Positions 676 through 57,830 of a DNA stretch of 64,000 nt are shown here, piece by piece. Position 1 is the stretch's first letter, and each line of letters opens with the position of its first letter. Where the stretch lies: the NCBI RefSeq assembly GCF_055900595.2, contig NZ_CM148325.1, one strand, 5' to 3'. The notes below the pieces were generated by a model. The model had not been told where the DNA came from. It saw nothing but the letters and a program-made list of their open reading frames with translations, and made no database searches. The position numbers and the translations under genes were made by a program.

Positions 676-2252
676 GATGAGAGATCTCCGTTGATTTGGA
701 TTGACTTCACATCATTAATCACCGCGGTAAAACTTTACGGCATCATGTCATTAAGCAATGCTACAACTCTCTGATTAAGAGTGATTGAAACGGAACAAAC
801 CATCCCGGAACGAAAAGATAATCCTGCACACAGCAGCAAAACACGCAACAACAGCATGAATGGATTTAAAAACGACATGGACGACGAGAAAAGCCTGAAG
901 GGAAAAGGATCCACAGAACATTCGAACAAAACACCAGAAACGCAACCAGAACGCTTCCTGGCAATGCAAATCAACAACAACGCCAAAACCTACAGCTTAA
1001 TCACACAACTCAATCACGAATGCGAATGACACGTTTAAAACCTGTTTACAGATAACGCCGTAACACGATCATCCCCATCACCATCAGAATCGATTTTCTC
1101 ATCCCGAAAATGTTACGTTTCACTACGCACCATAAAAACGGTTAACCATCGATAACGTAAACCTTATCTGAATCAAAAACACCAAAACCGTTCATCACAC
1201 TTTCGCAATGCAAGAAGAAACCTCATGACAAAAAGAATGACCTTACACGGAAAAGAAAACGTCAGGAATCGTTAATGCCTCAATCTGATTGTTATCAAAA
1301 CATCCAGAAAGTCGTTTAACAGAATCGTCGTAAGCACATCGAAAAGAACGTCAGATCACCTCAGGAAAGTTCGGGTTGATTTAGCGTAAAGATACTTTTC
1401 TCAGCTTAACGTCGAAACACAAACCAAAAACCACAAACAACCAAAGCTCAGGAAAGGTTAAACGTCACATCAGTAAAATCGAATAGCAGATTGATTGCTT
1501 AAACAGGAAGGATTGTTTTACAGCAGCATTAAACTGATTTAGTTAACGTAAAATCAGAACTGACAGGTTTACTAACTTGGATGTGTATCAGTTCAAAAAT
1601 GTGTACAGCAATGCGTAATGAAACACATTTAAAGGAGATTAATGGGAAAGTGTGTAAATGCGTAAACAGGCACTAATGAATCACTGGAGGAATACATACA
1701 AAACGACTTAATGAAAACATAAAAGGACCTAATGGAAAAGGTGTATATAATACCATATCCGACATTCTCAACATCTTAAGACATCCATGCAGACTGAATG
1801 TTGGTTTCAGTTTTTCACGGTAAGCATGAATCTTTTCTGTTCAAAAGCAGAGCAGATTTACTCTGGAATTATTTTTCTTACTCCGTATTCTGTACAGCAA
1901 AAACTTGTGCTAACTTTACAGCAAACCATCATAATCAGCGTCTGTAGTCCCATCGCTTTACCCCATGAAAGTGAATCCATATGATGTGAGAGAGATAAGT
2001 CATCGTATCCGGTAAACACTGCTTACTATAACATAAGATCATTCAGTCAGTTTTATCTCTGAACTGACGATTATGGCATGCTCATTTATATGGCTCACAG
2101 AGGAGTGTTATTATCCGTAAGCTTTAATCATCAAATCACATGACCATACCAAACTGGCGCTATATCAGCTCATTTGACGCTCATTCCCTTTAGATTTCTT
2201 TATGTGTTTTTTGTTGATAATTAAAATGTAATATAAATTTAATATTTTCAAA

Positions 2253-3476
2253 TCATAAACACCATTTAAAACCATCATCCTGAACATCATACAACAATAT
2301 ATTTTTACTAAAGCATGAATTGTATACTTCTATTAATTCAGGAAAATTATCAGGATTCACCTTTAAATTCAACTGAATGTTACACTTAATTTCACTCAGC
2401 AGTTCTTCATGCGTGGATTTTATTATCCCTTTATCATAATCTATAAATACACACATGTTTTTCATGAATTCAAACCCTTTTCCTGTATACAGTTTGATGA
2501 ATGCCACAAGAGCAAACATTTCAAGATGCAGCCATAATGCCACGTGAGTTTTTCGCAAAGTATAAAAAATTGAATTCGCCACTTTTTTACTTATTGCTCT
2601 TTTGTACTGTGAGTGCGCCAGATTCAGTAGTGGCAATTCTCTCTCGATAAATGAAAGTGAAAAAGACGGGTAAATTGATGTCGGAAATATTTCAGGTCTT
2701 ATGATATTTTCGATTTCCACCATAAATCTATCCATAGAACGAAAATCATTTTCTTTTTTTATTCTGGTATAGAGACCGCCTTTATTCCTTACTGCGACTT
2801 TTTTTCGTGCTATCCCCCCCAACATTTCCTCTAATTGTTTATTTATCTTCGTATCATTAAATACAACCATTCTTCTTATCATCCTGGGAAGGATGATAAT
2901 ATCAGAGCTTGAATCACTTGAACGGCAATTATTATTGATCCATGCAACTTCAAGTTGAAGTATCGGAACATTAAATTCTCTGGGGTTAATAACTCTCTGA
3001 TATTGTTTTTTGTATGCGTTTTCATTAAGATATTCTCTGCTGTAGAGAAACTTATAGCAATATAATCTGACAATATCCTTTATGTAAGATTTAAATGAGT
3101 CACCTGTAACAGATATATTTTTTCTTCTCAGTAACTCCTGTGTATTGAGCCATTCCCGTGACCGGAGTACTCCATTATGAAGACTTTTTCTTACTTGCTT
3201 TGAATTGCGCAATTGATGTAATATTTTTGCGTCCTCAACAATTCTCTTTCCCGTTTGATTTCTTGCAGCATCTATTACTCTGTCAAATATCTCCCGGTCC
3301 AGACTTTTGTCATATTTACTGATTATACGACAAATATTCCTGACCCGACGGTTCTCTTTATTTCGTTTCCATAACTGATAATGATCATCACATAACCTCA
3401 GGGCATTTGCCTCATCAAATTCTGAAACAGGATTGCTGCATTTTTTATTCCGACAGATACCTTTGTTTTTAGCCAT
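2253..3476 (-). CDS. Hypothetical protein, 407 aa, strongly AT-rich, Lys/Asn/Ile-rich; N-terminal Cys-x4-Cys...Cys-x2-His motif; no family recognised
   Basis: Long uninterrupted ORF in ORF track; spot counts of lines give roughly 22-37% GC versus about 50% in flanking core genes; sits between YfjJ-like and YfjP-like island genes. Confidence 0.75.
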   Translation of the reverse strand: MAKNKGICRNKKCSNPVSEFDEANALRLCDDHYQLWKRNKENRRVRNICRIISKYDKSLDREIFDRVIDAARNQTGKRIVEDAKILHQLRNSKQVRKSLHNGVLRSREWLNTQELLRRKNISVTGDSFKSYIKDIVRLYCYKFLYSREYLNENAYKKQYQRVINPREFNVPILQLEVAWINNNCRSSDSSSDIIILPRMIRRMVVFNDTKINKQLEEMLGGIARKKVAVRNKGGLYTRIKKENDFRSMDRFMVEIENIIRPEIFPTSIYPSFSLSFIERELPLLNLAHSQYKRAISKKVANSIFYTLRKTHVALWLHLEMFALVAFIKLYTGKGFEFMKNMCVFIDYDKGIIKSTHEELLSEIKCNIQLNLKVNPDNFPELIEVYNSCFSKNILLYDVQDDGFKWCL

Positions 3477-3576
3477 ACTCTTCTTCCCGTCAATGGAAAA
3501 ATTTTCACGTCCATATTACCTGACTGAGAGGCCGGATTAATGTGATCCGGTTCAGTGAAATCAACAGGATAACGGT

Positions 3577-4461
3577 ATGTCATTCAGCCATTCTTCCCTC
3601 TCCGCACACGTAAAGTCACATCTGACCTTTCTTCCTGAAGAAATTCGCCAGAAAATCCTTGAACATCTTCGCAGCGTCATTCAGTACGAACCCGTTATTG
3701 GCATTATGGGTAAATCCGGTGCCGGAAAAAGCAGCCTGTGCAATGCCATTTTTCAGTCCCGTGTCTGCGCCACGCATCCGCTGAACGGCTGCACCCGTCA
3801 GGCTCATCGTCTTACCTTTCAGCCCGGTGAACGAAGAATGACGCTGGTCGATCTGCCCGGCACTGGCGAAACACCACAGCATGATCAGGAATACCGGGCA
3901 CTTTACAGTCAGTTACTGCCCGAACTGGATCTGATTATCTGGATCCTGCGGGCTGATGAACGTGCGTATGCTGCCGACATCGCCATGCATCAGTTTTTAC
4001 TGAATGAAGGTGCCGATCCCTCGCGTTTTCTGTTTGTTCTCAGCCATGCCGATCGCATCCACCCGGCTGAAGAATGGAACAACCAGAGCAGCACGCCATC
4101 CCGTCAGCAGGAACTCTCACTGGCGACGGTGACAGCCCGGGTGGCAACCCTGTTCCCTTCATCATTTCCGGTACTCCCCATAGCCGCTCCTGCCGGCTGG
4201 AATCTTCCGGCATTTGTGTCTCTGATGATCCACGCCCTGCCACCACAGGCAACCAGCGCGGTTTATTCGCATATCCGGAATGAAAAGCGCACTGCGCAGG
4301 ATCAGCAACACGCACAGCAGGCTTTTGGTGACGCCATCGGCCAGAGTTTTGACGCTGCCATTGCCCGGTTCAGCTTTCCGGCCTGGATGCTGCAGCTTCT
4401 GCGCAAAGCCCGTGATCGCATTATCCGCCTGCTGATCACACTGTGGGATCGCCTGTTCTGA
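3577..4461 (+). CDS. Island GTPase, YfjP/YkfA/YeeP-like (P-loop GTP-binding protein)
   Basis: 294-aa ORF with Walker A motif GIMGKSGAGKSS; sequence resembles K-12 prophage GTPases YfjP/YkfA. Confidence 0.85.
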   Translation: MSFSHSSLSAHVKSHLTFLPEEIRQKILEHLRSVIQYEPVIGIMGKSGAGKSSLCNAIFQSRVCATHPLNGCTRQAHRLTFQPGERRMTLVDLPGTGETPQHDQEYRALYSQLLPELDLIIWILRADERAYAADIAMHQFLLNEGADPSRFLFVLSHADRIHPAEEWNNQSSTPSRQQELSLATVTARVATLFPSSFPVLPIAAPAGWNLPAFVSLMIHALPPQATSAVYSHIRNEKRTAQDQQHAQQAFGDAIGQSFDAAIARFSFPAWMLQLLRKARDRIIRLLITLWDRLF

Positions 4462-4646
4462 ATGTCCCCGCTTTTTGACCGGCCCCGGCGATAACCAGGA
4501 AACGCATTTCCGGTTGCGTCACCACAATGCTGAAGGGCTTCGGTAAACCCTCATTCATTTCATCCATCAGGCCGCGTCTTCTCCGTGAGACGCGGCTTTT
4601 TCATTGATTACGTCATTCAGTCTTAACCACTGATAAGGAGCAAAGT

Positions 4647-5465
4647 ATGCGATTAGCCAGTCGTTTTGGTTATGCGAACCAGATACGCCGTGACCGTCCG
4701 CTGACCCGTGAAGAGCTGATGCACCATGTGCCCGGGATTTTCGGGGAAGATAAACACACCTCCCGGAGCCGGAACTATACATACATCCCCACCATCACCG
4801 TGCTGGAAAGCCTGCAGCGGGAAGGCTTTCAGCCATTCTTCGCCTGCCAGACCCGCGTACGTGACCCGGGCCGCCGGGGGTATACCAAACACATGCTGCG
4901 TCTGCGCCGTGACGGGGAGATAAACGGACAACATGTCCCTGAAATTATTCTGCTCAACTCTCATGACGGTACCTCCAGCTACCAGATGCTGCCGGGTTAC
5001 TTCAGGTTCGTCTGCCAGAACGGATGCGTCTGCGGTCAGTCTCTGGGGGAAGTGCGTGTTCCGCACCGGGGAAATGTGGTGGACAGAGTCATTGAAGGGG
5101 CTTACGAGGTGGTGGGCGTGTTTGACCGGATAGAGGAGAAGCGTGATGCCATGCAGTCGCTGGTCCTGCCGCCACCGGCACGCCAGGCGCTGGCACAGGC
5201 GGCACTGACTTACCGTTATGGTGACGAACATCAGCCCGTCACCACCGCCGACATTCTGACACCACGACGCCGGGAGGATTACGGTAAGGACCTGTGGAGT
5301 GCTTATCAGACCATCCAGGAGAATATGCTGAAAGGCGGGATTTCCGGTCGCAGTGCAAAAGGAAAACGTATCCATACCCGGGCCATTCACAGCATTGATA
5401 CCGATATAAAACTCAACCGCGCATTGTGGGTGATGGCAGAAACGCTGCTTGAGAGCATGCGCTGA
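4647..5465 (+). CDS. DUF932-family island protein, YfjQ-like
   Basis: 272-aa ORF; position after the GTPase gene and similarity to YfjQ as recalled. Confidence 0.75.
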   Translation: MRLASRFGYANQIRRDRPLTREELMHHVPGIFGEDKHTSRSRNYTYIPTITVLESLQREGFQPFFACQTRVRDPGRRGYTKHMLRLRRDGEINGQHVPEIILLNSHDGTSSYQMLPGYFRFVCQNGCVCGQSLGEVRVPHRGNVVDRVIEGAYEVVGVFDRIEEKRDAMQSLVLPPPARQALAQAALTYRYGDEHQPVTTADILTPRRREDYGKDLWSAYQTIQENMLKGGISGRSAKGKRIHTRAIHSIDTDIKLNRALWVMAETLLESMR

Positions 5466-5546
5466 TGCCGTTTCCCTGAGTGAGGGAATCATTCAGCTTT
5501 CGTTCCTGAAAAACACACATTTATTTGTTATTTAAGGCGTTATCTC

Positions 5547-6026
5547 ATGAAAACCGTTTCTCAGAATACCCCCACAATTTATTCAGCTACAACACCAGAG
5601 AATAATCCGCCTCAGTTGGTTGCCAGCCTCGTCCCTGATGAACAGCGCATCAGCTTCTGGCCGCAGCATTTTGGCCTCATTCCACAGTGGGTGACCCTGG
5701 AGCCCCGTGTCTTCGGCTGGATGGACCGTCTGTGCGAAGACTACTGCGGTGGTATCTGGAATCTGTACACCCTGAACAACGGCGGGGCATTTATGGCCCC
5801 CGAACCGGATGATGATGATGACGAAACATGGGTACTGTTCAATGCCATGAACGGTAACCGCGCTGAAATGAGCCCGGAAGCCGCCGGCATTGCTGCCTGT
5901 CTGATGACGTACAGTCATCACGCCTGCCGTACGGAGTGTTATGCCATGACGGTTCATTATTACCGTCTGCGGGATTACGCCCTGCAGCATCCGGAATGCA
6001 GCGCCATTATGCGCATCATTGACTGA
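5547..6026 (+). CDS. Antirestriction protein, KlcA/ArdB-like (YfjX/YafX family)
   Basis: 159-aa ORF with acidic DDDDDE tract; conserved position preceding RadC-like gene in CP4-type islands. Confidence 0.75.
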   Translation: MKTVSQNTPTIYSATTPENNPPQLVASLVPDEQRISFWPQHFGLIPQWVTLEPRVFGWMDRLCEDYCGGIWNLYTLNNGGAFMAPEPDDDDDETWVLFNAMNGNRAEMSPEAAGIAACLMTYSHHACRTECYAMTVHYYRLRDYALQHPECSAIMRIID

Positions 6027-6041
6027 AAGGGGGCCGGAACA

Positions 6042-6518
6042 ATGCAACAGATTTCCTTTCTGCCCGGAGAAATGACAACCAGAGAGCGCAGCCTCATTCA
6101 GCGGGCCCTGAAAGCCCTGGACCGCCATCTTCATGAACCCGGCGTGGTCTTCACCTCCACGCATGCGGCACGGGAATGGCTGATTCTGAACATGGCGGGA
6201 CTGGAGCGTGAAGAATTCCGGGTGCTGTATCTGAACAACCAGAATCAGCTGATTGCCGGTGAAACCCTCTTCACCGGCACCATCAACCGCACGGAAGTCC
6301 ATCCCCGGGAAGTGATTAAACGCGCCCTGTACCACAATGCCGCTGCCGTGGTGCTGGCACACAATCACCCGTCCGGTGAAGTCACACCCAGTAAGGCAGA
6401 CCGCCTTATTACGGAACGTCTGGTACAGGCGCTGGCCCTGGTGGATATCCGGGTGCCGGACCATCTGATAGTCGGTGGCAGCCAGGTTTTCTCCTTTGCC
6501 GAACATGGTCTGCTTTAA
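6042..6518 (+). CDS. RadC-like JAB/JAMM domain protein (YfjY/YeeS/YkfG family)
   Basis: 158-aa ORF containing JAMM metal-binding motif HNHPSG...D (VVLAHNHPSGEVTPSKADRLITERL). Confidence 0.85.
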   Translation: MQQISFLPGEMTTRERSLIQRALKALDRHLHEPGVVFTSTHAAREWLILNMAGLEREEFRVLYLNNQNQLIAGETLFTGTINRTEVHPREVIKRALYHNAAAVVLAHNHPSGEVTPSKADRLITERLVQALALVDIRVPDHLIVGGSQVFSFAEHGLL

Positions 6519-6580
6519 CCCGTCACAACCACATCACACCTGTTTTCACTTTTATCTTCTGTCTTCAGAGGTATCCCATT

Positions 6581-6802
6581 ATGAAAATCATCACCCGTGG
6601 TGAAGCCATGCGTATTCACCAACAGCATCCTGCATCCCGTCTTTTTCCGTTCTGTACCGGCAAATACCGCTGGCACGGCAGCACTGAAACGTATACCGGT
6701 CGTGAAGTGCAGGATATTCCCGGTGTGCTGGCTGTGTTTGCAGAACGTCGTAAGGACAGTTTTGGCCCGTATGTCCGGCTGATGAGCGTCACCCTGAACT
6801 GA
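6581..6802 (+). CDS. DUF987 protein (YeeT/YpjJ/YkfH family)
   Basis: 73-aa ORF in conserved island position after RadC-like gene. Confidence 0.7.
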   Translation: MKIITRGEAMRIHQQHPASRLFPFCTGKYRWHGSTETYTGREVQDIPGVLAVFAERRKDSFGPYVRLMSVTLN

Positions 6803-6816
6803 GTCAGGGCATTCTG

Positions 6817-7447
6817 ATGAGCAGAATTATCACCATCACAGTGTATACGCTGGATGAACTTTCCTGCCCGGCACGGGAAAAAGCCCGCGACGGGTACCGT
6901 CAGCATCATGCTGACAGCAACTGGTATGAAAACGTGTATGAAGACTTCAGGGAGGTCTGTGGCATTTTCGGAATTGACCTCCGCCAGCGCGTTTTCCGGC
7001 TCAGCAACGGCAGGTTTATGGAGGAGCCGAGCATCTGGTTCAGCGGATTCTGCAGCCAGGGACGGAGCCTGTTTTGAAGGACGCTGGCACTGGCAGTCAG
7101 CAACAACCAGGAGAGTCCGGGAGTATGCCCCGCAGAACCGTGAGCTTCATCGTATCGCGGATGCCCTGCAGGCGGTGCAGAAACGTAACTTCTGGCAACT
7201 GCAGGCTGAAATCCACCACCGGGGACGTTACTGCCATCCGTTATCACTGTTACCCGGAACAGTCCGACTGGTCAGGCTATGACAGCCGATGCGGAAGCCG
7301 CTGTCAGCGAAGCCCTGCGCGACCTGGCCTTCTGGCTGTACCGTCAACTGGAAAACGAGTACGACCAGATGACCTCAGACGCCGCTGTGGATGAGGCCAT
7401 TCTCATCAATGCATACATCTTCACCGAAACCGGTCAGCGCACCGGCT
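6817..7447 (+). pseudogene. Island gene apparently disrupted by frameshifts (about 210 codons spread over three reading frames)
   Basis: Contiguous overlapping ORFs 6817-7077 (frame 1), 6854-7282 (frame 2), 7074-7394 (frame 3) and a frame-1 tail 7279-7447; pattern typical of a frameshifted gene. Identity not recognised. Confidence 0.35.
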
Positions 7448-7498
7448 GACCTGTCATCGTTAAACCATTCTTAACCACTTTTCAGAGAGGATTTTATC

Positions 7499-7867
7499 GT
7501 GTCAGACACACTCTCCGGGATAACTCATCCCGACGACAATCACGACCGCCCCTGGTGGGGGCTTCCCTGCACAGTGAGGCCCTGTTTTGGCGCCCGTCTG
7601 GTGCAGGAGGGTAACCGCCTGCATTACCTTGCCGACCGCGCCGGCATCAGAGGCCGGTTCAGCGATGCGGATGCATACCATCTGGACCAGGCCTTTCCGC
7701 TGCTGATGAAACAACTGGAACTCATGCTCACCAGCGGTGAACTGAATCCCCGCCATCAGCATACCGTCACGCTGTATGCAAAAGGGCTGACCTGCGAAGC
7801 CGACACCCTCGGCAGTTGTGGTTACGTTTATCTGGCTGTTTATCCGACGCCCGAAACGAAAAAGTAA
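7499..7867 (+). CDS. Type IV antitoxin, CbeA/YfjZ/YafW family
   Basis: 122-aa ORF MSDTLSGITHPDDNHDRPWWGLPCTV... closely resembles K-12 CbeA (YeeU)/YfjZ. Confidence 0.85.
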   Translation: MSDTLSGITHPDDNHDRPWWGLPCTVRPCFGARLVQEGNRLHYLADRAGIRGRFSDADAYHLDQAFPLLMKQLELMLTSGELNPRHQHTVTLYAKGLTCEADTLGSCGYVYLAVYPTPETKK

Positions 7868-7957
7868 ACCACCGGAATAACCTTCTGCTCCGGCCAGGTG
7901 TTTTCACCACGCCACTCTCCCCATAATTTAATCTCTCATATCAGGAAAATCTTCAGT

Positions 7958-8368
7958 ATGAAATTATTACCCGACACACATGTACGGGAGGCATCGTGCT
8001 GCCCGTCTCCCGTCACCATCTGGCAGACACTGCTCATCCGTCTGCTGGACCAGCACTATGGCCTCACACTGAATGACACACCGTTCGCTGATGAACGTGT
8101 GATTGAGCAGCATATTGAGGCCGGCATTTCACTGTGCGATGCGGTGAACTTTCTCGTTGAAAAATACGCACTGGTACGTACCGACCAGCCGGGATTCAGC
8201 GCAGGAGCCCCGTCGCAGTTAATCAACAGCATCGATATTCTCCGGGCCCGCCGGGCAACAGGCCTGATGACACGTAATAACTACAGAATGGTAAATAACA
8301 TTACCCTGGGTAGCATCCGGGGGCGAAACGATGAAACTTTCCCTGACGCTGGAAGCCGACAGCATTAA
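7958..8368 (+). CDS. Type IV toxin, CbtA/YpjF/YkfI family (cytoskeleton-inhibiting toxin)
   Basis: ORF from ATG at 7958 (MKLLPD...[60 protein letters not shown]...) matches CbtA-like toxins; immediately downstream of antitoxin. C-terminal extent uncertain. Confidence 0.8.
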
Positions 8369-8753
8369 CGTGCAGGCACTGAACATGGGGCGCATTGTCG
8401 TTGACATTGATGGTGTAAATCTCGCTGAACTGATTAACAAGGTCGCTGAATACGGTTATTCACTCCGCGTGGTGGATGAACGTGACGCTACCGAAACACC
8501 GGCGACTTCTGCCAGCTCTCATCAGTTGCCGGAAGACAATACAGTGATACAGAGCGTGATGCCATTAACCACTGAAACAGCGCTGGATATCCTCATTGCG
8601 TGGCTGCAGGACAATATCGACTGCGGGTCCGGAATTATTTTCGACAACGATGAGGATAAAACGGATTCGGCAGCACTGCTGCCCTGTATTGAACAGGCCA
8701 GGGAGGATATCCGTACCCTGCACCAACTGCAACTTCTGCACCAGAACCGGTGA
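8331..8753 (+). CDS. YeeW-like island protein
   Basis: 140-aa ORF following the toxin gene as in CP4-44/CP4-57 modules; assignment by position and recalled similarity. Confidence 0.55.
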
Positions 8754-8837
8754 ATCTCACTCACCAGACTTCATTCTCCTGACGCCAGCCTGAACAGAGC
8801 TGGCGTTTTCGTTTATAAACAGAAAGGAAACCCCATA

Positions 8838-9623
8838 ATGTCATATATCACAATCCCCCACCCGAACGCGGTCAACGGACATACAGCCGTTATCTGTTCC
8901 ACAAGTATCAGACACATCCTGGCTGTACGAAAGAGTACACTGCTGCAAATCGACACGCTTATCCGGCAACTGACAGAAATCTCAGCACTGACGGAAAGTA
9001 TTGGCGGTAAAGCCGCCCCGGACTGGGCGATGAAACAGAATTTTCGCTGTGGTTGCTGGCTGATGGAGAAACCAGAAACAGCAATGAAAGCCATTACCCG
9101 GAATCTTGACCGCGAAATCTGGCGTAACCTGATGCAGCGTTCCGGGATGCTTTCCTTAATGGATGCACAGGCACGTGATACATGGTACAGGTCACTGGAA
9201 TATGATAATTTTCCGGAAATCAGTGAAGCGAACATTCTGAGCACATTTGAACAACTGCACCAGAATAAGGATGAAGTGTTTGAGCGGGGGGTGATCAACC
9301 TCTTCAAAGGGCTGAGCTGGGATTACAAAACCAACTCACCCTGTAAATTTGGCAGTAAAATTATCGTCAACAATCTGGTGAGGTGGGACCAGTGGGGATT
9401 TCATCTTATCAGTGGAATGCAGGCAGATCGCCTGGCTGACCTGGAAAGAATGTTGCATCTGCTCAGCGGTAAACCGATCCCCGACAACCGGGGAATATCA
9501 CCATTAATCTGGATGACCACATACAGTCCGTTCAGGGTAAAGGACGCTATGAAGATGAGATGTTCATCATTAAATACTTTAAGAAGGGAGCTGCACACAT
9601 CACTTTCAAAAGGCTGGAGCTGA
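8838..9623 (+). CDS. Hypothetical island-terminal protein, 261 aa
   Basis: Uninterrupted ORF with plausible RBS context; last gene before the tRNA-fragment repeat. Family not recognised. Confidence 0.6.
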   Translation: MSYITIPHPNAVNGHTAVICSTSIRHILAVRKSTLLQIDTLIRQLTEISALTESIGGKAAPDWAMKQNFRCGCWLMEKPETAMKAITRNLDREIWRNLMQRSGMLSLMDAQARDTWYRSLEYDNFPEISEANILSTFEQLHQNKDEVFERGVINLFKGLSWDYKTNSPCKFGSKIIVNNLVRWDQWGFHLISGMQADRLADLERMLHLLSGKPIPDNRGISPLIWMTTYSPFRVKDAMKMRCSSLNTLRRELHTSLSKGWS

Positions 9624-9789
9624 TTGACAGAATTAACGATATAATAGCCAGGCACTTTCCTTCTGTGCTCTCAGCCTGACCCCGAGTTTGATTCCCTTTC
9701 GATATCAAAAGGGACTGCGGGTACAAAAGAGGGTACATCTTTCACCAAACCAAACAAAATAAACCAATATCAACATGATAGAAGCATTC

Positions 9790-10442: not shown

Positions 10443-11152
10443 ATGCAACAACCTGTAGTTCGCGTTGGCGAATGGCTTGTTACTCCGTCCATAAACCAAA
10501 TTAGCCGCAATGGGCGTCAACTTACCCTTGAGCCGAGATTAATCGATCTTCTGGTTTTCTTTGCTCAACACAGTGGCGAAGTACTTAGCAGGGATGAACT
10601 TATCGATAATGTCTGGAAGAGAAGTATTGTCACCAATCACGTTGTGACGCAGAGTATCTCAGAACTACGTAAGTCATTAAAAGATAATGATGAAGATAGT
10701 CCTGTCTATATCGCTACTGTACCAAAGCGCGGCTATAAATTAATGGTGCCGGTTATCTGGTACAGCGAAGAAGAGGGAGAGGAAATAATGCTATCTTCGC
10801 CTCCCCCTATACCAGAGGCGGTTCCTGACACAGATTCTCCCTCCCAAAGTCTTAACATTCAAAACACCGCAACACCACCTGAACAATCCCCAGTTAAAAG
10901 CAAACGATTCACTACCTTTTGGGTATGGTTTTTTTTCCTGTTGTCGTTAGGTATCTGTGTAGCACTGGTAGCGTTTTCAAGTCTTGATACACGTCTTCCT
11001 ATGAGCAAATCGCGTATTTTGCTCAATCCACGCGATATTGACATTAATATGGTAAATAAAAGTTGTAACAGCTGGAGTTCCCCGTATCAGCTCTCTTACG
11101 CGATAGGCGTGGGTGATTTGGTGGCGACATCACTTAACACCTTCTCCACCTT
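10443..11152 (+). pseudogene. cadC: cadC 5' fragment (DNA-binding domain and transmembrane segment) truncated by IS1 insertion
   Basis: ORF MQQPVVRVGEWLVTPSINQISRNGRQLTLEPRLIDLL... equals CadC N-terminus; reading frame runs into IS1 and ends 6 codons later (VMLPTY-stop at 11174). Confidence 0.9.
11144..11152. repeat. IS1 target-site duplication, left copy (CTCCACCTT)
   Basis: Identical 9-bp sequence immediately flanks both IS1 ends. Confidence 0.85.
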
Positions 11153-11207
11153 GGTGATGCTGCCAACTTACTGATTTAGTGTATGATGGTGTTTTTGAGG
11201 TGCTCCA

Positions 11208-11483
11208 GTGGCTTCTGTTTCTATCAGCTGTCCCTCCTGTTCAGCTACTGACGGGGTGGTGCGTAACGGCAAAAGCACCGCCGGACATCAGCGCTATCTC
11301 TGCTCTCACTGCCGTAAAACATGGCAACTGCAGTTCACTTACACCGCTTCTCAACCCGGTACGCACCAGAAAATCATTGATATGGCCATGAATGGCGTTG
11401 GATGCCGGGCAACTGCCCGCATTATGGGCGTTGGCCTCAACACGATTTTACGTCACTTAAAAAACTCAGGCCGCAGTCGGTAA
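11208..11483 (+). CDS. insA: IS1 InsA (transposition repressor / N-terminal part of InsAB' transposase)
   Basis: 91-aa [94 protein letters not shown]. Confidence 0.95.
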
Positions 11484-11905
11484 CCTCGCGCATACAGCCG
11501 GGCAGTGACGTCATCGTCTGTGCGGAAATGGACGAACAGTGGGGCTATGTCGGGGCTAAATCGCGCCAGCGCTGGCTGTTTTACGCGTATGACAGGCTCC
11601 GGAAGACGGTTGTTGCGCACGTATTCGGTGAACGCACTATGGCGACGCTGGGGCGTCTTATGAGCCTGCTGTCACCCTTTGACGTGGTGATATGGATGAC
11701 GGATGGCTGGCCGCTGTATGAATCCCGCCTGAAGGGAAAGCTGCACGTAATCAGCAAGCGATATACGCAGCGAATTGAGCGGCATAACCTGAATCTGAGG
11801 CAGCACCTGGCACGGCTGGGACGGAAGTCGCTGTCGTTCTCAAAATCGGTGGAGCTGCATGACAAAGTCATCGGGCATTATCTGAACATAAAACACTATC
11901 AATAA
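11402..11905 (+). CDS. insB: IS1 InsB (C-terminal part of InsAB' transposase)
   Basis: 167-aa ORF matching IS1 InsB (…[33 protein letters not shown]…). Confidence 0.95.
11457..11465 (+). promoter_or_regulatory. IS1 programmed -1 ribosomal frameshift site (A6C motif TTAAAAAAC)
   Basis: Sequence TTAAAAAAC at the insA/insB overlap, the known site producing InsAB' transposase. Confidence 0.75.
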
Positions 11906-11920
11906 GTTGGAGTCATTACC

Positions 11921-11929
11921 CTCCACCTT
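11921..11929. repeat. IS1 target-site duplication, right copy (CTCCACCTT)
   Basis: Identical to 11144-11152. Confidence 0.85.
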
Positions 11930-12758
11930 TATGGTGCATGACAAAATCAACTACAACATTGATGAACCGAGCAGTTCCGGTAAAACATTATCTATTGCGT
12001 TTGTTAATCAGCGCCAATACCGTGCTCAACAATGCTTTATGTCGGTAAAATTGGTAGACAATGCAGATGGTTCAACCATGCTGGATAAACGTTATGTCAT
12101 CACTAACGGTAATCAGCTGGCGATTCAAAATGATTTACTGGAGAGTTTATCAAAAGCGTTAAACCAACCGTGGCCACAACGAATGCAGGAGATGCTCCAG
12201 CAAATTTTGCCTCATCGTGGTGCGTTATTAACTAATTTTTATCAGGCACATGATTATTTACTGCATGGCGATGATAAATCATTGAACCGTGCCAGTGAAT
12301 TACTAGGTGAGATTGTTCAATCATCCCCCGAATTTACCTACGCGAGAGCAGAAAAAGCATTAGTTGATATCGTGCGCCATTCTCAACATCCTTTAGATGA
12401 AAAACAATTAGCAGCACTGAATACAGAAATAGATAACATTGTTACACTGCCGGAATTGAACAACCTGTCCATTATATATCAAATAAAAGCGGTCAGTGCT
12501 CTGGTAAAAGGTAAAACAGATGAGTCTTACCAGGCGATAAATACTGGCATTGATCTTGAAATGTCCTGGCTAAATTATGTGTTGCTTGGCAAGGTTTATG
12601 AAATGAAGGGGATGAACCGGGAAGCAGCTGATGCATATCTCACCGCCTTTAATTTACGCCCAGGGGCAAACACCCTTTACTGGATTGAAAATGGTATATT
12701 CCAGACTTCTGTTCCTTATGTTGTACCTTATCTCGACAAATTTCTCGCCTCAGAATAA
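11921..12758 (+). pseudogene. cadC: cadC 3' fragment (periplasmic sensor domain) separated from its 5' part by IS1
   Basis: Frame reading STFMVHDKINYNIDEPSSSGKTLSIAFVNQRQYRAQQCF... to stop at 12758 matches the CadC periplasmic domain. Confidence 0.9.
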
Positions 12759-27598: not shown

Positions 27599-28249
27599 AT
27601 GACCCGCACACTCAAGCCGTTAATTCTTAACACCGGCGCACTGGCGCTAACGTTAATCCTGATTTATACCGGCATTTCGGCCCATGACAAACTCACCTGG
27701 CTGATGGAAGTGACGCCGGTGATTATTGTCGTGCCGCTACTGCTTGCCACCGCCAGACGTTACCCGTTAACGCCGCTGCTCTATACGCTCATTTTCTTTC
27801 ATGCCATCATCCTGATGGTCGGCGGACAATACACCTACGCGAAAGTCCCCGTTGGTTTTGACGTGCAAGAATGGCTGGGATTGAGCCGTAATCCGTATGA
27901 CAAGCTGGGGCATTTTTTCCAGGGGCTGGTGCCTGCACTGGTGGCGCGAGAAATTCTCGTTCGCGGGATGTACGTGCGCGGACGTAAAATGGTGGCGTTT
28001 CTGGTCTGCTGCGTGGCGCTGGCGATAAGCGCGATGTATGAATTAATCGAGTGGTGGGCAGCGCTGGCAATGGGTCAGGGAGCGGATGATTTTCTCGGTA
28101 CCCAAGGCGACCAATGGGACACACAATCCGATATGTTCTGCGCGCTACTTGGTGCATTAACGACGGTGATGTTCCTCGCTCGCTTTCATTACCGCCAGCT
28201 ACGGCGCTTTGGCTTAATCACCAGAGCGCCGGAAGCGATTACCTCTTAA
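27599..28249 (+). CDS. yjdF: Inner membrane protein YjdF
   Basis: 216-aa membrane ORF MTRTLKPLILNTGALALTLILIYTGISAHDKL...; its stop codon overlaps the melA stop on the other strand. Confidence 0.8.
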   Translation: MTRTLKPLILNTGALALTLILIYTGISAHDKLTWLMEVTPVIIVVPLLLATARRYPLTPLLYTLIFFHAIILMVGGQYTYAKVPVGFDVQEWLGLSRNPYDKLGHFFQGLVPALVAREILVRGMYVRGRKMVAFLVCCVALAISAMYELIEWWAALAMGQGADDFLGTQGDQWDTQSDMFCALLGALTTVMFLARFHYRQLRRFGLITRAPEAITS

Positions 28250-29601
28250 CGGTGCAACCAGCCTGGCAGCCAGTCGCCGTGGGCGGCAATCAGGTCGTCA
28301 ACAAGAGCATATATTTCGTCAATGCCCAGCACGGCGGCAGTATGCGGGTCCATCATCGCGGCGTGGTAAACACGGTCGCGATTTTCCGTAAGAATGGCTT
28401 CGGTCAGCAGCGTCTGTACGTTGATGTTGGTTTGCATCAGGGCGGCCAGATGCGAAGGTAGCGTACCGACTTTGGTCGGCTGAATGCCATTAGCATCAAC
28501 TAAACAGGCCACTTCCACGCAACATCCTTGTGGCAGGTTATCAATCAAACCATCGTTACGGACGTTGCCGTAAATCACACTCGGCTCGCCAGTCCAGATA
28601 GCGTTCATGATTGTGCTGGCATATTCCCGTGACGGTTTAATATCAATCCGGGAGGCGTTCTTATACTCCTCCAGCTCTTTATGCCAGTTTGCCAATTGTT
28701 CGACGCAGCGTTTCGGGTACTCATCCAGCGGCACTTTATAACGCTCAATCAAATCCTCACGACCTGGCTTAATAAACCACGGCGTGTACTCAGCAAAATG
28801 TTCTGACGATTCCGTGACGAAGTAGCCCAGCTTTTTGAACATTTCATAGCGCACAATATTCTGGCAGCGAGTATTGCCATGAATATTCGGCTTCGGTGCC
28901 TGCCCTGCTTCATAAGCCGCCAGCAGTTCCGGGTAGAGATTCACGTAACTGCCGTCGGCGGTTTTGCGCTCCAGTTCCAGGTAAAACGCCATATGGTTGA
29001 TACCTGCGCAACGGTAACGCAGCGTAGCCGGGTCGATATTGAGGTCACGCGCCAGCTCTTCCGCCGTTCCCTGCACCGAATGGCACAGCCCTACCTGTTT
29101 GATATGCGGATAACGGGCATACATCGCCCAGGTATTCATCGCCATTGGGTTAACATAGTTGAGCATGGTGGCATCGGGGCAGATTTCCGTCATGTCCTCG
29201 CAAATTTGCCACAGGTGAGGAATGGTACGTAGCGCGCGCATAATACCGCCCGGCCCCAGCGTATCGGCAATGGTTTGTTCCAGACCGTGGCGCTTACAGA
29301 CCTCAAAATCAGTCACCGTGCAAGGTTCATAACCGCCAATCTGAAATGCCACTACGACAAAATCGGCATCCTGTAAGGCTTCTTTCTGTTGGGTGTGGCA
29401 GGTGATTTTGCCACTGGCCCCTGCTGAATCCATCAGCTTGCGCACCACAATATGCGACTCTTCCAGGCGGGTGGGATCAATGTCCATCAGGGCAATATGC
29501 GCCGTTTTCAGCGCCTCGCGATGGAACACATCACCAAGAATATTTTTAACGAAAATCGTCGAACCAGCGCCGATAAATGTAATTTTGGGTGCAGACATCA
29601 T
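28246..29601 (-). CDS. melA: Alpha-galactosidase (melibiase)
   Basis: 451-aa ORF MMSAPKITFIGAGSTIFVKNILGDVFHREALKTAHIALMDIDPTRLEE... ending ...GDWLPGWLHR. Confidence 0.9.
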   Translation of the reverse strand: MMSAPKITFIGAGSTIFVKNILGDVFHREALKTAHIALMDIDPTRLEESHIVVRKLMDSAGASGKITCHTQQKEALQDADFVVVAFQIGGYEPCTVTDFEVCKRHGLEQTIADTLGPGGIMRALRTIPHLWQICEDMTEICPDATMLNYVNPMAMNTWAMYARYPHIKQVGLCHSVQGTAEELARDLNIDPATLRYRCAGINHMAFYLELERKTADGSYVNLYPELLAAYEAGQAPKPNIHGNTRCQNIVRYEMFKKLGYFVTESSEHFAEYTPWFIKPGREDLIERYKVPLDEYPKRCVEQLANWHKELEEYKNASRIDIKPSREYASTIMNAIWTGEPSVIYGNVRNDGLIDNLPQGCCVEVACLVDANGIQPTKVGTLPSHLAALMQTNINVQTLLTEAILTENRDRVYHAAMMDPHTAAVLGIDEIYALVDDLIAAHGDWLPGWLHR

Positions 29602-29883
29602 GCAGATCTCCTGGCTTGCTTGAATAACTTCATCATGGCAGGCGAATCTGCAGAAAACCTCCGGCTTCCAGGTTGAGCATTCCCATAAACTCAGATCCTG
29701 CGTGAAGTATCAGTAAATCTGAGTTTATGGGAATAAATTACCTGAAAAGCAGAGTTTTCGGCCTCAGAATGCTCGGACGGTCCCCTCGCCCCTCTGGGAA
29801 GAGAGTGAAAACCGTGCTCCCACTCGCAGTCATCCTCCCTCACTCCTGCCATAATTCTGATATTCCAGGAAAGAGAGTCATCC
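29602..29883. promoter_or_regulatory. melR-melA divergent promoter/operator region (inferred)
   Basis: Intergenic region between divergent melA and melR; specific sites not mapped. Confidence 0.45.
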
Positions 29884-30792
29884 ATGAATACAGATACGTT
29901 TATGTGCAGCAGCGACGAAAAACAGACCCGCAGCCCGCTGTCGCTGTATTCGGAATACCAGCGGATGGAGATTGAGTTTCGCGCACCGCATATCATGCCC
30001 ACCAGCCACTGGCATGGTCAGGTCGAAGTGAATGTGCCTTTCGATGGCGATGTGGAATACCTGATCAACAATGAAAAAGTGAGTATCAATCAGGGACATA
30101 TCACGCTGTTCTGGGCCTGTACACCGCACCAACTAACAGATACCGGAAACTGTCAGAGCATGGCGATTTTTAATCTGCCGATGCATCTGTTTCTCTCCTG
30201 GCCGCTGGATAAAGACCTGATTAACCACGTCACTCACGGCATGGTGATCAAATCACTGGCGACACAGCAACTTAGCCCGTTTGAAGTGCGCCGCTGGCAG
30301 CAGGAATTGAACAGTCCGAACGAGCAAATTCGCCAGCTCGCCATTGATGAAATTGGCCTGATGCTCAAGCGATTTAGCCTCTCTGGCTGGGAACCGATTC
30401 TGGTCAATAAAACCTCGCGCACACACAAAAACAGCGTCTCGCGCCATGCGCAATTTTATGTCAGCCAGATGCTGGGCTTTATTGCCGAAAACTATGATCA
30501 GGCGCTGACCATCAACGATGTGGCTGAGCACGTCAAACTTAACGCCAACTATGCAATGGGGATATTCCAGCGGGTCATGCAATTGACGATGAAACAGTAC
30601 ATTACCGCGATGCGCATCAACCACGTTCGCGCGTTACTGAGCGATACCGATAAAAGTATTCTCGATATTGCCCTGACGGCAGGCTTTCGTTCGAGTAGCC
30701 GTTTTTACAGCACGTTCGGCAAATATGTCGGCATGTCACCGCAACAATACCGCAAACTTAGCCAACAGCGCCGCCAGACGTTTCCCGGCTAA
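29884..30792 (+). CDS. melR: Melibiose operon AraC-family activator
   Basis: 302-aa ORF with C-terminal AraC-type HTH; matches MelR. Confidence 0.9.
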   Translation: MNTDTFMCSSDEKQTRSPLSLYSEYQRMEIEFRAPHIMPTSHWHGQVEVNVPFDGDVEYLINNEKVSINQGHITLFWACTPHQLTDTGNCQSMAIFNLPMHLFLSWPLDKDLINHVTHGMVIKSLATQQLSPFEVRRWQQELNSPNEQIRQLAIDEIGLMLKRFSLSGWEPILVNKTSRTHKNSVSRHAQFYVSQMLGFIAENYDQALTINDVAEHVKLNANYAMGIFQRVMQLTMKQYITAMRINHVRALLSDTDKSILDIALTAGFRSSSRFYSTFGKYVGMSPQQYRKLSQQRRQTFPG

Positions 30793-38238: not shown

Positions 38239-39330
38239 ATGCGTTTTCTGCGCCGACCAATATCGCTGCGCCAACGGCTGATATTGACCATCGGGGCCAT
38301 TTTGTTGGTGTTTGAGCTGATCAGCGTCTTCTGGCTATGGCATGAAAGTACCGAGCAGATTCAGCTGTTTGAGCAGGCGCTACGCGACAATCGTAACAAC
38401 GATCGCCACATCATGCGTGAGATCCGCGAGGCGGTCGCCAGCCTGATTGTCCCTGGCGTCTTTATGGTCAGCCTGACGCTATTTATCTGCTATCAGGCGG
38501 TACGCCGCATCACCCGCCCGCTGGCGGAGCTGCAAAAAGAGCTGGAAGCGCGCACCGCCGACAACTTAACGCCCATTGCCATTCACAGCGCCACCCTCGA
38601 AATCGAAGCGGTGGTTTCAGCGTTAAACGATCTGGTCAGTCGCCTGACCAACACGCTGGATAACGAAAGGTTGTTTACCGCTGACGTCGCGCACGAACTG
38701 CGAACGCCACTGGCGGGGGTGCGTTTGCATCTGGAACTGCTGGCGAAAACGCATCACATTGATGTAGCACCGTTAGTGGCACGACTTGATCAGATGATGG
38801 AGAGTGTCTCCCAGCTACTGCAACTGGCGCGTGCCGGACAGTCATTTTCTTCCGGTAATTATCAACATGTAAAACTGCTGGAAGATGTCATTCTCCCCTC
38901 GTATGACGAACTCAGTACCATGCTCGACCAGCGCCAGCAAACCCTGCTATTGCCAGAGAGCGCCGCCGACATCATCGTTCAGGGTGATGCAACCCTGCTG
39001 CGGATGTTATTGCGAAACCTGGTAGAAAATGCCCATCGTTACAGCCCGCAAGGCAGCAACATTATGATTAAGCTGCAAGAAGATGGCGGAGCGGTCATGG
39101 CCGTTGAAGATGAAGGACCGGGTATTGATGAGAGTAAATGCGGGGAGTTGAGTAAAGCGTTTGTACGTATGGACAGCCGTTATGGCGGGATTGGTCTGGG
39201 GTTAAGTATTGTCAGCCGCATTACACAGTTGCATCACGGGCAGTTTTTCCTGCAAAACCGGCAAGAGACTTCTGGCACACGGGCCTGGATACGGCTGAAA
39301 AAAGATCAGTACGTGGCAAACCAGATATAA
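38239..39330 (+). CDS. basS: Sensor histidine kinase BasS (PmrB)
   Basis: 363-aa frame from ATG 38239 (MRFLRRPISLRQRLILTIGAILLVFELISVFWLWHESTEQ...); ORF track extends to an upstream TTG at 38230. Confidence 0.85.
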   Translation: MRFLRRPISLRQRLILTIGAILLVFELISVFWLWHESTEQIQLFEQALRDNRNNDRHIMREIREAVASLIVPGVFMVSLTLFICYQAVRRITRPLAELQKELEARTADNLTPIAIHSATLEIEAVVSALNDLVSRLTNTLDNERLFTADVAHELRTPLAGVRLHLELLAKTHHIDVAPLVARLDQMMESVSQLLQLARAGQSFSSGNYQHVKLLEDVILPSYDELSTMLDQRQQTLLLPESAADIIVQGDATLLRMLLRNLVENAHRYSPQGSNIMIKLQEDGGAVMAVEDEGPGIDESKCGELSKAFVRMDSRYGGIGLGLSIVSRITQLHHGQFFLQNRQETSGTRAWIRLKKDQYVANQI

Positions 39331-39395
39331 AGAAAGCTGCTGACCACCAGCACGCTGAACACGGTAGTTAAACTTTCATAAACACGGTTTTTCAT
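39306..39395 (-). CDS. pmrR: Small membrane peptide PmrR (29 aa)
   Basis: Hand-translated minus-strand ORF MKNRVYESLTTVFSVLVVSSFLYIWFATY; overlaps the 3' end of basS on the opposite strand. Confidence 0.6.
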   Translation of the reverse strand: MKNRVYESLTTVFSVLVVSSFLYIWFATY

Positions 39396-39506
39396 TGCAC
39401 TCTCCTCCGTTAACCTGGAGGAGAGTATGCGCGTCAGAGATTAAGTGAACCTTAAGAGTTCAATTGGCCTGATAAGACAGCATCACATCAGGCCATCCGT
39501 TTCAGC

Positions 39507-45139: not shown

Positions 45140-45300
45140 CATGATCGGTAGGCCGGATAAGGCGCTCGCGCCGCATCCGGCTACGGTGCCGACTGCCTGA
45201 TGCGACGCTCGCGCGTCTTATCAGGCCTACAAATTCTCGCACCATCCGGCAACGGTGCCTAATGCGACGCTTACCGAGTCTTATCAGCCCCCGCTTATCT
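45140..45300. repeat. REP/BIME cluster (about three REP palindromes)
   Basis: GCCGGATAAGGCGCTCGCGCCGCATCCGGC and GCCTGATGCGACGCTCGCGCGTCTTATCAGGCC-type palindromes between phnA and phnB. Confidence 0.7.
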
Positions 45301-57578: not shown

Positions 57579-57830
57579 TGATTAATTGTGCTCAGTATTT
57601 GCCGAAGTACAATATATATAATAAATATATAAAACACCTCATATTATTTACAGAGATAATAAATTCGCATACTTTTCCCTCTTCAGCACAAATGCCTAAT
57701 AAAATGGCTCGTTCCGCTCACACTTCCACTTATTAAAATCGCAATTTCCCAATTATGATAACGCCAGCTTTAAATGACGTATTTTGCATGGATTACATAT
57801 TTACGACACAAATGATAAATGGAGATTTAT

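What the first reader, a model, noticed from the sequence alone, without database searches (positions are those of the whole stretch)
28190..28300. melB absent: melA and yjdF stop codons overlap where K-12 carries the melibiose permease gene
In K-12 melB lies between melA and the convergent yjdF. Here the melA stop (complement of 28246-28248) and the yjdF stop (28247-28249) overlap, leaving no room for melB. The melA and melR genes look intact, so the strain would make alpha-galactosidase but lack the dedicated melibiose permease. The yjdF C-terminus may have been remodelled by the deletion.
Basis: partly seen in the sequence, partly recalled or inferred. Interest (0 to 1): 0.5.

Follow-up and report, generated by a model that had tools for sequence, protein, structure and literature searches.

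The report
Common E. coli allele lacking melB

Summary
yjdF (27599-28249, +) and melA (28246-29601, -) converge on one TTAA that holds both stop codons. Compared with K-12, 1,668 bp are replaced by 23 bp (28223-28245). The lost stretch is the melA-melB spacer, melB, the REP spacer and the last yjdF codon. YjdF changes from ...GLITG* to ...GLITRAPEAITS* (216 aa instead of 209). MelA and MelR are 99.3% identical to K-12, and the promoter-proximal part of the regulatory region is unchanged.

It is not new or rare. The same junction is in 1,264 of 5,426 complete E. coli genomes, including UTI89 and the type strain ATCC 11775. melB is in 4,136 others, and the two sets almost exactly add up to the genomes that have melA. 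Touchon et al. 2009 listed melB as specifically absent in B2. The junction also occurs in E. whittamii and two other Escherichia lineages, in a K-12-like background, and in this window's rare lineage, so it arose once and spread by recombination.

melA and melR stay under strong purifying selection (dN/dS about 0.015-0.1). The melB-less type strain is reported melibiose-positive. Uptake through LacY is the likely route, but that is inferred. Citrobacter species lost melB independently. Interest is low.

The parts
27599..28249 (+). yjdF (DUF2238 inner-membrane protein), 216 aa. Residues 1-208 are homologous to K-12 YjdF. Residues 209-216 (RAPEAITS) are a new tail read from the junction filler.
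   Evidence: ORF list; translation; NCBIfam PRK09867 matches residues 1-208 of the 209-position model, 462 bits against a cut-off of 353; comparison with K-12
28223..28245 (.). 23-bp junction filler that replaces 1,668 bp of K-12 (melA-melB spacer, melB, REP-containing melB-yjdF spacer, last yjdF codon and stop). It is probably a remnant of the melA-proximal spacer: it shares TTCCGGCGC, the right arm of the conserved post-melA hairpin.
   Evidence: BLAST and manual alignment; the same filler with a few substitutions in 10 melB-less sequences; the 9-mer match is not significant on its own (53 of 300 shuffles), so the origin is inferred from its position
28246..28249 (.). TTAA holding both stop codons (yjdF TAA at 28247-28249; melA TAA on the complement of 28246-28248). 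The two convergent coding sequences overlap by 4 bp.
   Evidence: annotated the same way by PGAP
28202..28231 (.). 11-bp GC-rich inverted repeat (CGGCGCTTTGG / CCAGAGCGCCG, 8-nt loop) created by the junction. It lies inside the yjdF 3' end and about 15 nt downstream of the melA stop. It takes the place of the K-12 post-melA hairpin.
   Evidence: the repeat finder; RNA folds (z = -2.7 on the melA strand, -3.8 on the yjdF strand; the K-12 post-melA hairpin has z = -2.8). No U-tract follows and there is no compensatory variation, so a function is only inferred
28246..29601 (-). melA, GH4 alpha-galactosidase, 451 aa, intact
   Evidence: 99.3% aa identity to K-12; NCBIfam PRK15076 735 bits against a cut-off of 486; dN/dS 0.014-0.029 among melB-less lineages
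29602..29883 (.). melR-melA divergent regulatory region, 282 bp as in K-12. It has 9 substitutions, and the roughly 110 bp next to melA are identical to K-12.
29884..30792 (+). melR, AraC-family activator of the mel promoter, 302 aa, intact
   Evidence: 99.3% aa identity to K-12; NCBIfam PRK10371 636 bits against a cut-off of 253

Best explanation
This is the widespread melB-less allele of the Escherichia mel locus. A single old deletion removed melB and both of its flanking spacers, about 1.65 kb. It left a 23-bp remnant, fused the 3' ends of melA and yjdF so that their stop codons share one TTAA, and gave YjdF a new 8-residue tail. The allele has since moved between lineages, and even between Escherichia species, by homologous recombination, and it coexists with the melB+ allele. 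MelR and alpha-galactosidase MelA are still made and still needed. Melibiose and other alpha-galactosides most likely enter through the lactose permease LacY, which melibiose itself induces, so carriers are not necessarily melibiose-negative.

Shown here: the anatomy, the population frequency, the single origin, the recombination, the purifying selection on melA and melR, and the melibiose-positive phenotype reported for a carrier. Inferred: LacY as the uptake route, the filler being a spacer remnant, and the junction hairpin acting as a 3' end or stabiliser for the converging transcripts.
For: Anatomy.
Frequency: 1,263-1,264 of 5,426 complete genomes carry the contiguous junction, 4,136 carry melB and 5,399 carry melA.
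Prior report: melB is listed as specifically absent in B2 (PMC2617782, Table 5).
Single origin: the same filler and reading frame occur in the window, UTI89, ATCC 11775, four other E. coli, E. whittamii, SCPM-O-B-8794 and Escherichia sp. E1V33.
Deletion rather than insertion: melA-melB adjacency is found in Citrobacter, Salmonella, Kluyvera, Buttiauxella, Serratia and others, and YjdF is 205-210 aa in the Citrobacter, Kluyvera and related outgroups where it was examined.
Recombination: strain C9 (cow) has K-12-like flanks (fumB 100%, yjdF 99.4% identical) but carries the deletion. In the window's own lineage, R32_14_1F is melB+ and differs from the window mainly over 27600-30000. There are no fixed differences and 43 shared polymorphisms between 7 melB-less and 3 melB+ sequences.
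Function retained: melA dN/dS is 0.014-0.029 at dS up to 0.42, and melR dN/dS is 0.017-0.098. The promoter-proximal region is intact.
Phenotype: ATCC 11775 / DSM 30083T has the allele and is melibiose-positive in three assays (PMC4334874).
LacY route: LacY catalyses melibiose transport (PMC4308713), and growth on melibiose induces LacZ along with MelA in K-12 (PMC8144880).
Against: No experiment links LacY to melibiose use in a melB-less strain. Another transporter could be responsible.
The rest of this strain's genome was not available, so neither melB elsewhere nor the presence of lacY was checked directly.
The match between the filler and the K-12 spacer is not statistically significant by itself.
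The hairpin shows no covariation and has no U-tract.
Within E. coli the direction of allele flow is not resolved. melB is less diverse than its flanks (at least 99% identical to K-12 in 4,127 of 4,136 genomes, against 2,926 of 5,399 for melA), which could mean that the melB+ segment is the one that spread recently.
Confidence: 0.8

Rival explanations
1. Assembly artefact: melB was collapsed or lost during assembly of this contig.
For: None found.
Against: The identical architecture is present in 1,264 independently assembled complete genomes, including reference strains UTI89 and ATCC 11775. Both reading frames are clean across the junction.
Confidence: 0.01
2. The melB-less arrangement is the ancestral state, and melB was inserted in the K-12-like lineages, so this would be a gain and not a loss.
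For: melB is markedly less diverse than its neighbours in melB+ genomes. melB-less haplotypes are more diverse (melA 96.5-98.9% identical to K-12) and occur in basal E. coli (B2) and in other Escherichia species. A secondary re-spread of melB+ within E. coli is therefore possible.
Against: melR-melA-melB(-yjdF-fumB) synteny is conserved in Citrobacter, Salmonella, Kluyvera and beyond. YjdF ends at 205-210 aa in the Citrobacter, Kluyvera and related outgroups where it was examined, so the 216-aa tail is derived. The filler carries one arm of the hairpin that follows melA in all melB+ species. At the level of the genus, the deletion is the derived state.
Confidence: 0.1
3. The loss of melB is the first step of decay of the mel system: the strain is melibiose-negative and melA and melR are drifting toward pseudogenes.
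For: About 75% of E. coli are reported melibiose-positive (PMC11546641), which is numerically close to the 76% of genomes that carry melB. A different deletion, of the whole mel operon, does make O80:H2 strains non-fermenters (PMC11945584).
Against: melA dN/dS is 0.014-0.029 and melR dN/dS is 0.017-0.098 across melB-less lineages, with dS up to 0.4. The melB-less type strain is melibiose-positive. melA transposon mutants of ESBL E. coli strains lose fitness in the mouse gut; the four libraries were two ST131, one ST73 and one ST69, and the strain showing the defect was not specified (bioRxiv 10.64898/2026.06.25.730905).
Confidence: 0.08
4. The same deletion arose several times independently in different E. 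coli lineages at a deletion hotspot.
For: melB has been deleted independently in Citrobacter, so the locus is prone to losing melB.
Against: All Escherichia carriers examined share the same 23-bp filler, the same reading frame and the same TTAA/TTAG stop overlap, and differ only by point substitutions. The independent Citrobacter events have clearly different junctions.
Confidence: 0.03

Closest known systems
melB absence in E. coli phylogroup B2 (Touchon et al. 2009, PLoS Genet 5:e1000344, Table 5)
   Same: The same gene is missing while melA and melR are kept. The B2 strains UTI89 and ATCC 11775 carry exactly the junction seen in the window.
   Different: The window is not B2-like. Its fumB, yjdF and melA are only 98.2%, 94.6% and 97.0% identical to UTI89, and only 8-18 complete genomes are close to it. 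The paper reports presence or absence only, not the junction, its occurrence outside B2, or the phenotype.
K-12 melR-melAB-yjdF locus (reference arrangement)
   Same: The flanking genes, their order and orientation, the melR-melA regulatory region, and MelA and MelR (99.3% aa identity) all match.
   Different: 1,668 bp including melB are replaced by 23 bp. YjdF is 216 aa instead of 209. The convergent genes overlap by 4 bp instead of being separated by melB and a REP element.
Deletion of the whole mel operon with a 70-bp insert in STEC/EPEC O80:H2 (PMC11945584 and its ref. 15)
   Same: It is a deletion at the mel locus that leaves a short filler of unclear origin.
   Different: In O80:H2, melA, melB and melR are all gone and the strains do not ferment melibiose. 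Here only melB is gone and carriers can be melibiose-positive.
Independent melB-only deletions in Citrobacter (C. youngae, Citrobacter spp. MGH106, Res13-Sevr-PEB04-36, Cu233, wls619)
   Same: melA comes to lie directly against convergent yjdF, with melR and melA retained.
   Different: The junctions are different. A 44-54 bp spacer keeps the REP-like palindrome of the melB-yjdF spacer, yjdF stays at 210 aa and there is no overlap.

Membership tests
Escherichia melB-less mel allele (B2-type melA/yjdF junction) | melA and yjdF are contiguous, with the same 23-bp filler and stop codons sharing TTAA/TTAG | tested here: met
   Alignment of the junction in the window, UTI89, four other E. coli, E. 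whittamii, SCPM-O-B-8794 and E1V33. ATCC 11775 has the same annotated 4-bp overlap and its yjdF and melA are 100% identical to UTI89. 1,264 genomes cover at least 80% of a 191-bp junction query.
Escherichia melB-less mel allele (B2-type melA/yjdF junction) | No melB anywhere in the genome | tested here: inconclusive
   melB is absent from the 64-kb window. Genome-wide absence is inferred only from the near-perfect partition of 5,399 melA genomes into 4,136 with melB and 1,264 with the junction.
Escherichia melB-less mel allele (B2-type melA/yjdF junction) | The host belongs to phylogroup B2, as in the original report | tested here: not met
   The flanking genes are about as far from UTI89 and ATCC 11775 as from K-12 (fumB 98.2% against 98.0%). 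The nearest genomes form a small separate group. The phylogroup itself was not determined.
GH4 alpha-galactosidase MelA | Full-length match to the MelA model above the curated cut-off | tested here: met
   NCBIfam PRK15076, 735 bits against a cut-off of 486, residues 4-450
MelR (AraC-family activator of melAB) | Full-length match above the cut-off, encoded divergently from melA | tested here: met
   NCBIfam PRK10371, 636 bits against a cut-off of 253; gene positions
YjdF / DUF2238 | Match to the YjdF equivalog model | tested here: met
   PRK09867, 462 bits against a cut-off of 353. Residues 1-208 match positions 1-208 of the 209-position model, and the last 8 residues fall outside the model.
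MelB (GPH family melibiose:cation symporter) | A MelB-like coding sequence at the locus | tested here: not met
   tblastn of K-12 MelB against the window gave a best E-value of 0.35 over 13 aa. As a positive control, K-12 MelB scores 901 bits on PRK10429.
LacY-dependent melibiose utilisation | lacY is present and required for growth on melibiose when melB is absent | not testable with these tools
   The lac locus is outside the window. The only support comes from the literature: LacY transports melibiose, melibiose induces LacZ, and a melB-less type strain is melibiose-positive.

The most novel reading that the evidence does not exclude
The melB presence/absence difference could be an ancient polymorphism shared across Escherichia species and kept by selection rather than by drift. 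Five observations fit this. The deletion has a single origin but is found in at least three Escherichia species-level lineages and several E. coli backgrounds. Linkage to flanking variation has decayed right up to the junction. Synonymous diversity is raised in yjdF and melA. melA and melR are strongly conserved without melB. melB alone has been lost independently in Citrobacter. Together these would mean that MelB itself is costly or counter-selected in some niches, while LacY covers alpha-galactoside uptake.
Probability: 0.25. Interest if true: 0.4.

Novelty: already known. Interest (0 to 1): 0.15.

Why it matters
It matters little for discovery. The absence of melB in a large part of E. coli has been in the literature since 2009 and is visible in more than 1,200 RefSeq annotations.

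It has some practical value for annotation and metabolic modelling. A missing melB should not be read as melibiose-negative, because the melB-less type strain uses melibiose and melA and melR are clearly maintained.

If the allele were shown to be kept by selection, it would be a neat example of a transporter being selectively dispensable while its enzyme and regulator are retained, with a second permease (LacY) taking over.

Tried and rejected
1. I looked for melB or any remnant of the 1,668-bp K-12 segment elsewhere in the window (tblastn and blastn). Nothing was found apart from a REP-like 34-bp match.
2. I looked for microhomology at the deletion endpoints. There is no clean direct repeat. 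Instead there is a 23-bp filler whose best match to the deleted segment (a TTCCGGCGC 9-mer) is not significant on its own (53 of 300 shuffles). Only its position next to melA suggests that it is a spacer remnant.
3. I looked for a canonical intrinsic terminator between the convergent genes. There is none at the junction, only a hairpin without a U-tract and without compensatory changes.
4. An Rfam scan of the whole window found nothing at the locus.
5. I tried to use identity bands to tell whether the melB+ or the melB-less haplotype is older. The result is suggestive (melB is less diverse than its flanks) but not decisive.
6. The phylogroup of the window strain could not be assigned from 64 kb.
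7. The melA scan of one genome per species returned no locus titled E. albertii, E. fergusonii, E. marmotae or E. ruysiae, and not the ATCC 11775 genome either, although ATCC 11775 does have melA. The scan is therefore not exhaustive, and I drew no conclusion from those absences.

Full report
OBSERVATION. The sequence at 28190-28300 is as described. The ORF list gives yjdF at 27599..28249 (+, 216 aa) and melA at 28246..29601 (-, 451 aa). Bases 28246-28249 read TTAA. TAA at 28247-28249 stops yjdF, and the complement of 28246-28248 stops melA. The neighbouring genes are dcuB, fumB, yjdF, then melA on the other strand, then melR and adiA. This is the K-12 order read in reverse, except that K-12 has melB between melA and yjdF.

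DELETION ENDPOINTS. Aligned to K-12 (NC_000913.3 4338000-4350000), homology on the yjdF side runs to window 28222, which is 6 nt before the end of the K-12 yjdF ORF. Homology on the melA side begins at 28246, the last base of the melA stop codon.
- In between, K-12 has 1,668 bp: the 102-bp melA-melB spacer, melB, the 138-bp REP-containing melB-yjdF spacer, and the last yjdF codon with its stop. The window has 23 bp (28223-28245).
- YjdF therefore ends ...RRFGLITRAPEAITS* instead of ...RRFGLITG*.
- There is no simple microhomology. The filler shares TTCCGGCGC with the K-12 spacer just downstream of melA. That sequence is the right arm of a hairpin (GCGCCGG...CCGGCGC) that follows melA in every melB+ species examined. 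As a bare 9-mer match it is not significant (53 of 300 shuffles). Its position and orientation make a spacer remnant the likeliest origin, but this is an inference.
- The junction creates a new 11-bp GC-rich inverted repeat (28202-28212 with 28221-28231). It folds stably on both strands (z = -2.7 and -3.8) and sits where the K-12 post-melA hairpin (z = -2.8) used to be. It has no U-tract and no compensatory variation among alleles, so a role as an RNA 3' end or stabiliser is only a suggestion.

WHAT REMAINS IS INTACT.
- MelA differs from K-12 at 3 residues and MelR at 2.
- The 282-bp melR-melA region has 9 substitutions, and the roughly 110 bp next to melA are identical to K-12.
- NCBIfam scores: MelA 735 bits (cut-off 486), MelR 636 bits (cut-off 253), YjdF 462 bits (cut-off 353, residues 1-208 of a 209-position model).
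- No MelB-like sequence exists anywhere in the window.

HOW COMMON IT IS. Among 5,426 complete RefSeq E. coli genomes:
- 1,263-1,264 have the contiguous junction.
- 4,136 have melB.
- 5,399 have melA.
The two alleles therefore divide the melA-bearing genomes almost perfectly. This argues against melB lying elsewhere in junction carriers and rules out misassembly. Carriers include UTI89 and the species type strain ATCC 11775 = DSM 30083T. PGAP annotates both genes as intact and overlapping by 4 bp in every case examined.

PRIOR KNOWLEDGE. Touchon et al. 2009 (PMC2617782, Table 5) list melB, the melibiose permease, among the functions specifically absent in group B2 strains. The core of the finding is therefore already published. 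A different event, deletion of the whole mel operon with a 70-bp insert, is described for O80:H2 (PMC11945584).

ORIGIN AND SPREAD. All melB-less Escherichia sequences examined share the same filler, frame and stop overlap. They differ only by point substitutions (ATT/ATA/ACT/AAT, ACC/ACA, TCT/CCT, TAA/TAG). The set comprises the window, UTI89, C9 (cow), C9 (water), GmF046, ampC_0069, E. whittamii Sa2BVA5, E. coli SCPM-O-B-8794 and Escherichia sp. E1V33. ATCC 11775 has the same 4-bp overlap and is identical to UTI89 across yjdF and melA. This indicates one origin.

The deletion is the derived state. melR-melA-melB, followed in Citrobacter by yjdF and fumB, is conserved in Citrobacter, Salmonella, Kluyvera, Buttiauxella, Cedecea, Serratia and others, and YjdF is 205-210 aa in the Citrobacter, Kluyvera and related outgroups where it was examined.

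The allele is not confined to B2.
- The window's flanks are about equally distant from UTI89 and from K-12 (fumB 98.2% and 98.0%). Only 8 genomes are identical over yjdF-melA, and about 18 are at least 99% identical over adiA-adiC.
- Strain C9 (cow) has K-12-like flanks (fumB 100%, yjdF 99.4%, melR 99.8% identical) yet carries the deletion.
- Within the window's own lineage most genomes have the short fumB-to-adiA distance (3,510 bp), but R32_14_1F and 2020CK-00188 have 5,155 bp. R32_14_1F is confirmed melB+. It is about 99.6% identical to the window from 30300 onward but only about 97% over 27600-30000, which marks a recombination tract around the indel.
- In a sample of 7 melB-less and 3 melB+ sequences there are no fixed differences in yjdF (65 polymorphic sites) or melA (102), and 43 polymorphisms are shared.
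- Synonymous divergence between the window and UTI89 is higher in yjdF (0.21) and melA (0.14) than in melR (0.04).
These features point to a long-standing polymorphism that recombination has shuffled thoroughly. Which allele has spread more recently within E. coli is not settled. melB is at least 99% identical to K-12 in 4,127 of 4,136 genomes, against 2,926 of 5,399 for melA and 2,919 of 5,422 for fumB.

FUNCTION. Among melB-less lineages, melA has dN/dS of 0.014-0.029 at dS up to 0.42, and melR has dN/dS of 0.017-0.098. Both genes are therefore maintained by selection without melB.

DSM 30083T, which has the allele, is reported positive for D-melibiose on OmniLog plates, on API 20E and in M9 (PMC4334874). 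In a recent preprint, melA transposon mutants of ESBL E. coli lose fitness in the mouse gut; the libraries were two ST131, one ST73 and one ST69, and the strain showing the defect was not specified.

The likely uptake route is LacY. LacY catalyses melibiose transport (PMC4308713), and growth on melibiose induces LacZ together with MelA in K-12 (PMC8144880). It is also classical knowledge, from my own memory and not checked here, that K-12 depends on lac permease for growth on melibiose at 42 C, where its MelB is thermolabile.

This step is inferred. lacY lies outside the window and no knockout data exist for a melB-less strain. The numerical match between '75% of E. coli ferment melibiose' and 76% of genomes carrying melB should therefore not be read as cause and effect.

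PARALLEL LOSSES. In Citrobacter, melB alone has been deleted at least twice, with different junctions.
- L021 and L009 keep the REP-like palindrome of the melB-yjdF spacer seen in melB+ C. gillenii.
- L025, L026 (C. youngae) and L068 share another spacer.
- yjdF stays at 210 aa in all of them.
Repeated loss of melB while melA and melR are kept suggests that MelB is dispensable or sometimes disadvantageous.

VERDICT. However, this is a frequent, previously reported allele and not a feature of this strain, and it probably does not abolish melibiose use. Novelty: already known. Interest: low (0.15). The only reading with some novelty is that the indel is an old polymorphism shared across species and kept by selection. 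I give that about a 25% probability, and it would be of moderate interest if true.

Noticed in passing
window 10443-12758 (insertion at 11153-11920): cadC is split by an IS1 insertion of about 768 bp with a 9-bp target duplication. The N-terminal part (10443-11174) matches CadC model positions 1-246 and the C-terminal part (11907-12758) matches positions 241-515, with an IS1 transposase ORF at 11402-11905. The closest complete genome (NZ_CP098223.1) has an intact cadC. This predicts a lysine-decarboxylase-negative strain, a change known as pathoadaptive in Shigella and EIEC (that last point is from my own knowledge).
   Followed up: partly
window 1-9789: This stretch is absent from the closest genome, where pheU (tRNA-Phe) is followed directly by dicD and dsbD. 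The window keeps only about 23 nt of the tRNA-Phe 3' end at roughly 9790 and no tRNA gene is detected. The ORFs include a RadC-family protein (6042-6518) and a GTPase-like protein (3577-4461). It looks like the distal end of a genomic island integrated at pheU.
   Followed up: partly
window ~57398-57606: The D-allose operon (alsR, alsB, alsA, alsC, alsE, alsK) and part of rpiB are missing relative to ATCC 11775: about 6.8 kb is replaced by about 200 bp between yjdP and yjcS. The closest genome has the same state, annotated as a short RpiB/LacA/LacB-family ORF. This is another presence/absence difference in a sugar-utilisation locus within the same window.
   Followed up: partly
window 28239-63999 compared with NZ_CP098223.1: The window is nearly identical to this genome from 11921 to about 35000 but differs in a mosaic pattern further right, with up to 78 mismatches per kb at about 55k and none from 60k onward. 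The window strain is therefore a recombinant relative of that genome, not the same clone.
   Followed up: partly
L007, L008, L010 (Citrobacter amalonaticus, C. portucalensis, C. braakii), between melB and yjdF, e.g. L008 8882-9136: An 84-aa ORF with a PQ-loop motif lies right after melB. It matches solved SemiSWEET sugar transporters (PDB 4x5m, E = 1.5e-20). It is absent from the Escherichia locus.
   Followed up: partly
window 39299-39464 (-) and 45151-45227 (+): Rfam matches above the gathering score: sRNA STnc630 (182 bits) and nucleoid-associated RNA naRNA4 (99 bits). They are unrelated to the mel junction.
   Followed up: no
E. coli genome collection (K-12 melB, melA, fumB used as queries): melB is at least 99% identical to K-12 in 4,127 of 4,136 genomes that have it. 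Only 2,926 of 5,399 genomes reach that level for melA and 2,919 of 5,422 for fumB. So melB is clearly less diverse than its neighbours, which may be a sign of a recent spread of the melB+ segment.
   Followed up: partly
Genome-contig scan with MelA: The scan of one genome per species returned no locus titled E. albertii, E. fergusonii, E. marmotae or E. ruysiae. The Klebsiella and Raoultella loci have melR and melA but no melB next to them. The scan also missed ATCC 11775, which does have melA, so these absences are not reliable.
   Followed up: no
NZ_AP022159.1 (strain WP5-S18-ESBL-07), hit H70: Only the last 165 bp of melB remain, next to crfC. This indicates a different and much larger deletion that removes the mel-adi-eptA-proP region in that strain.
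   Followed up: no
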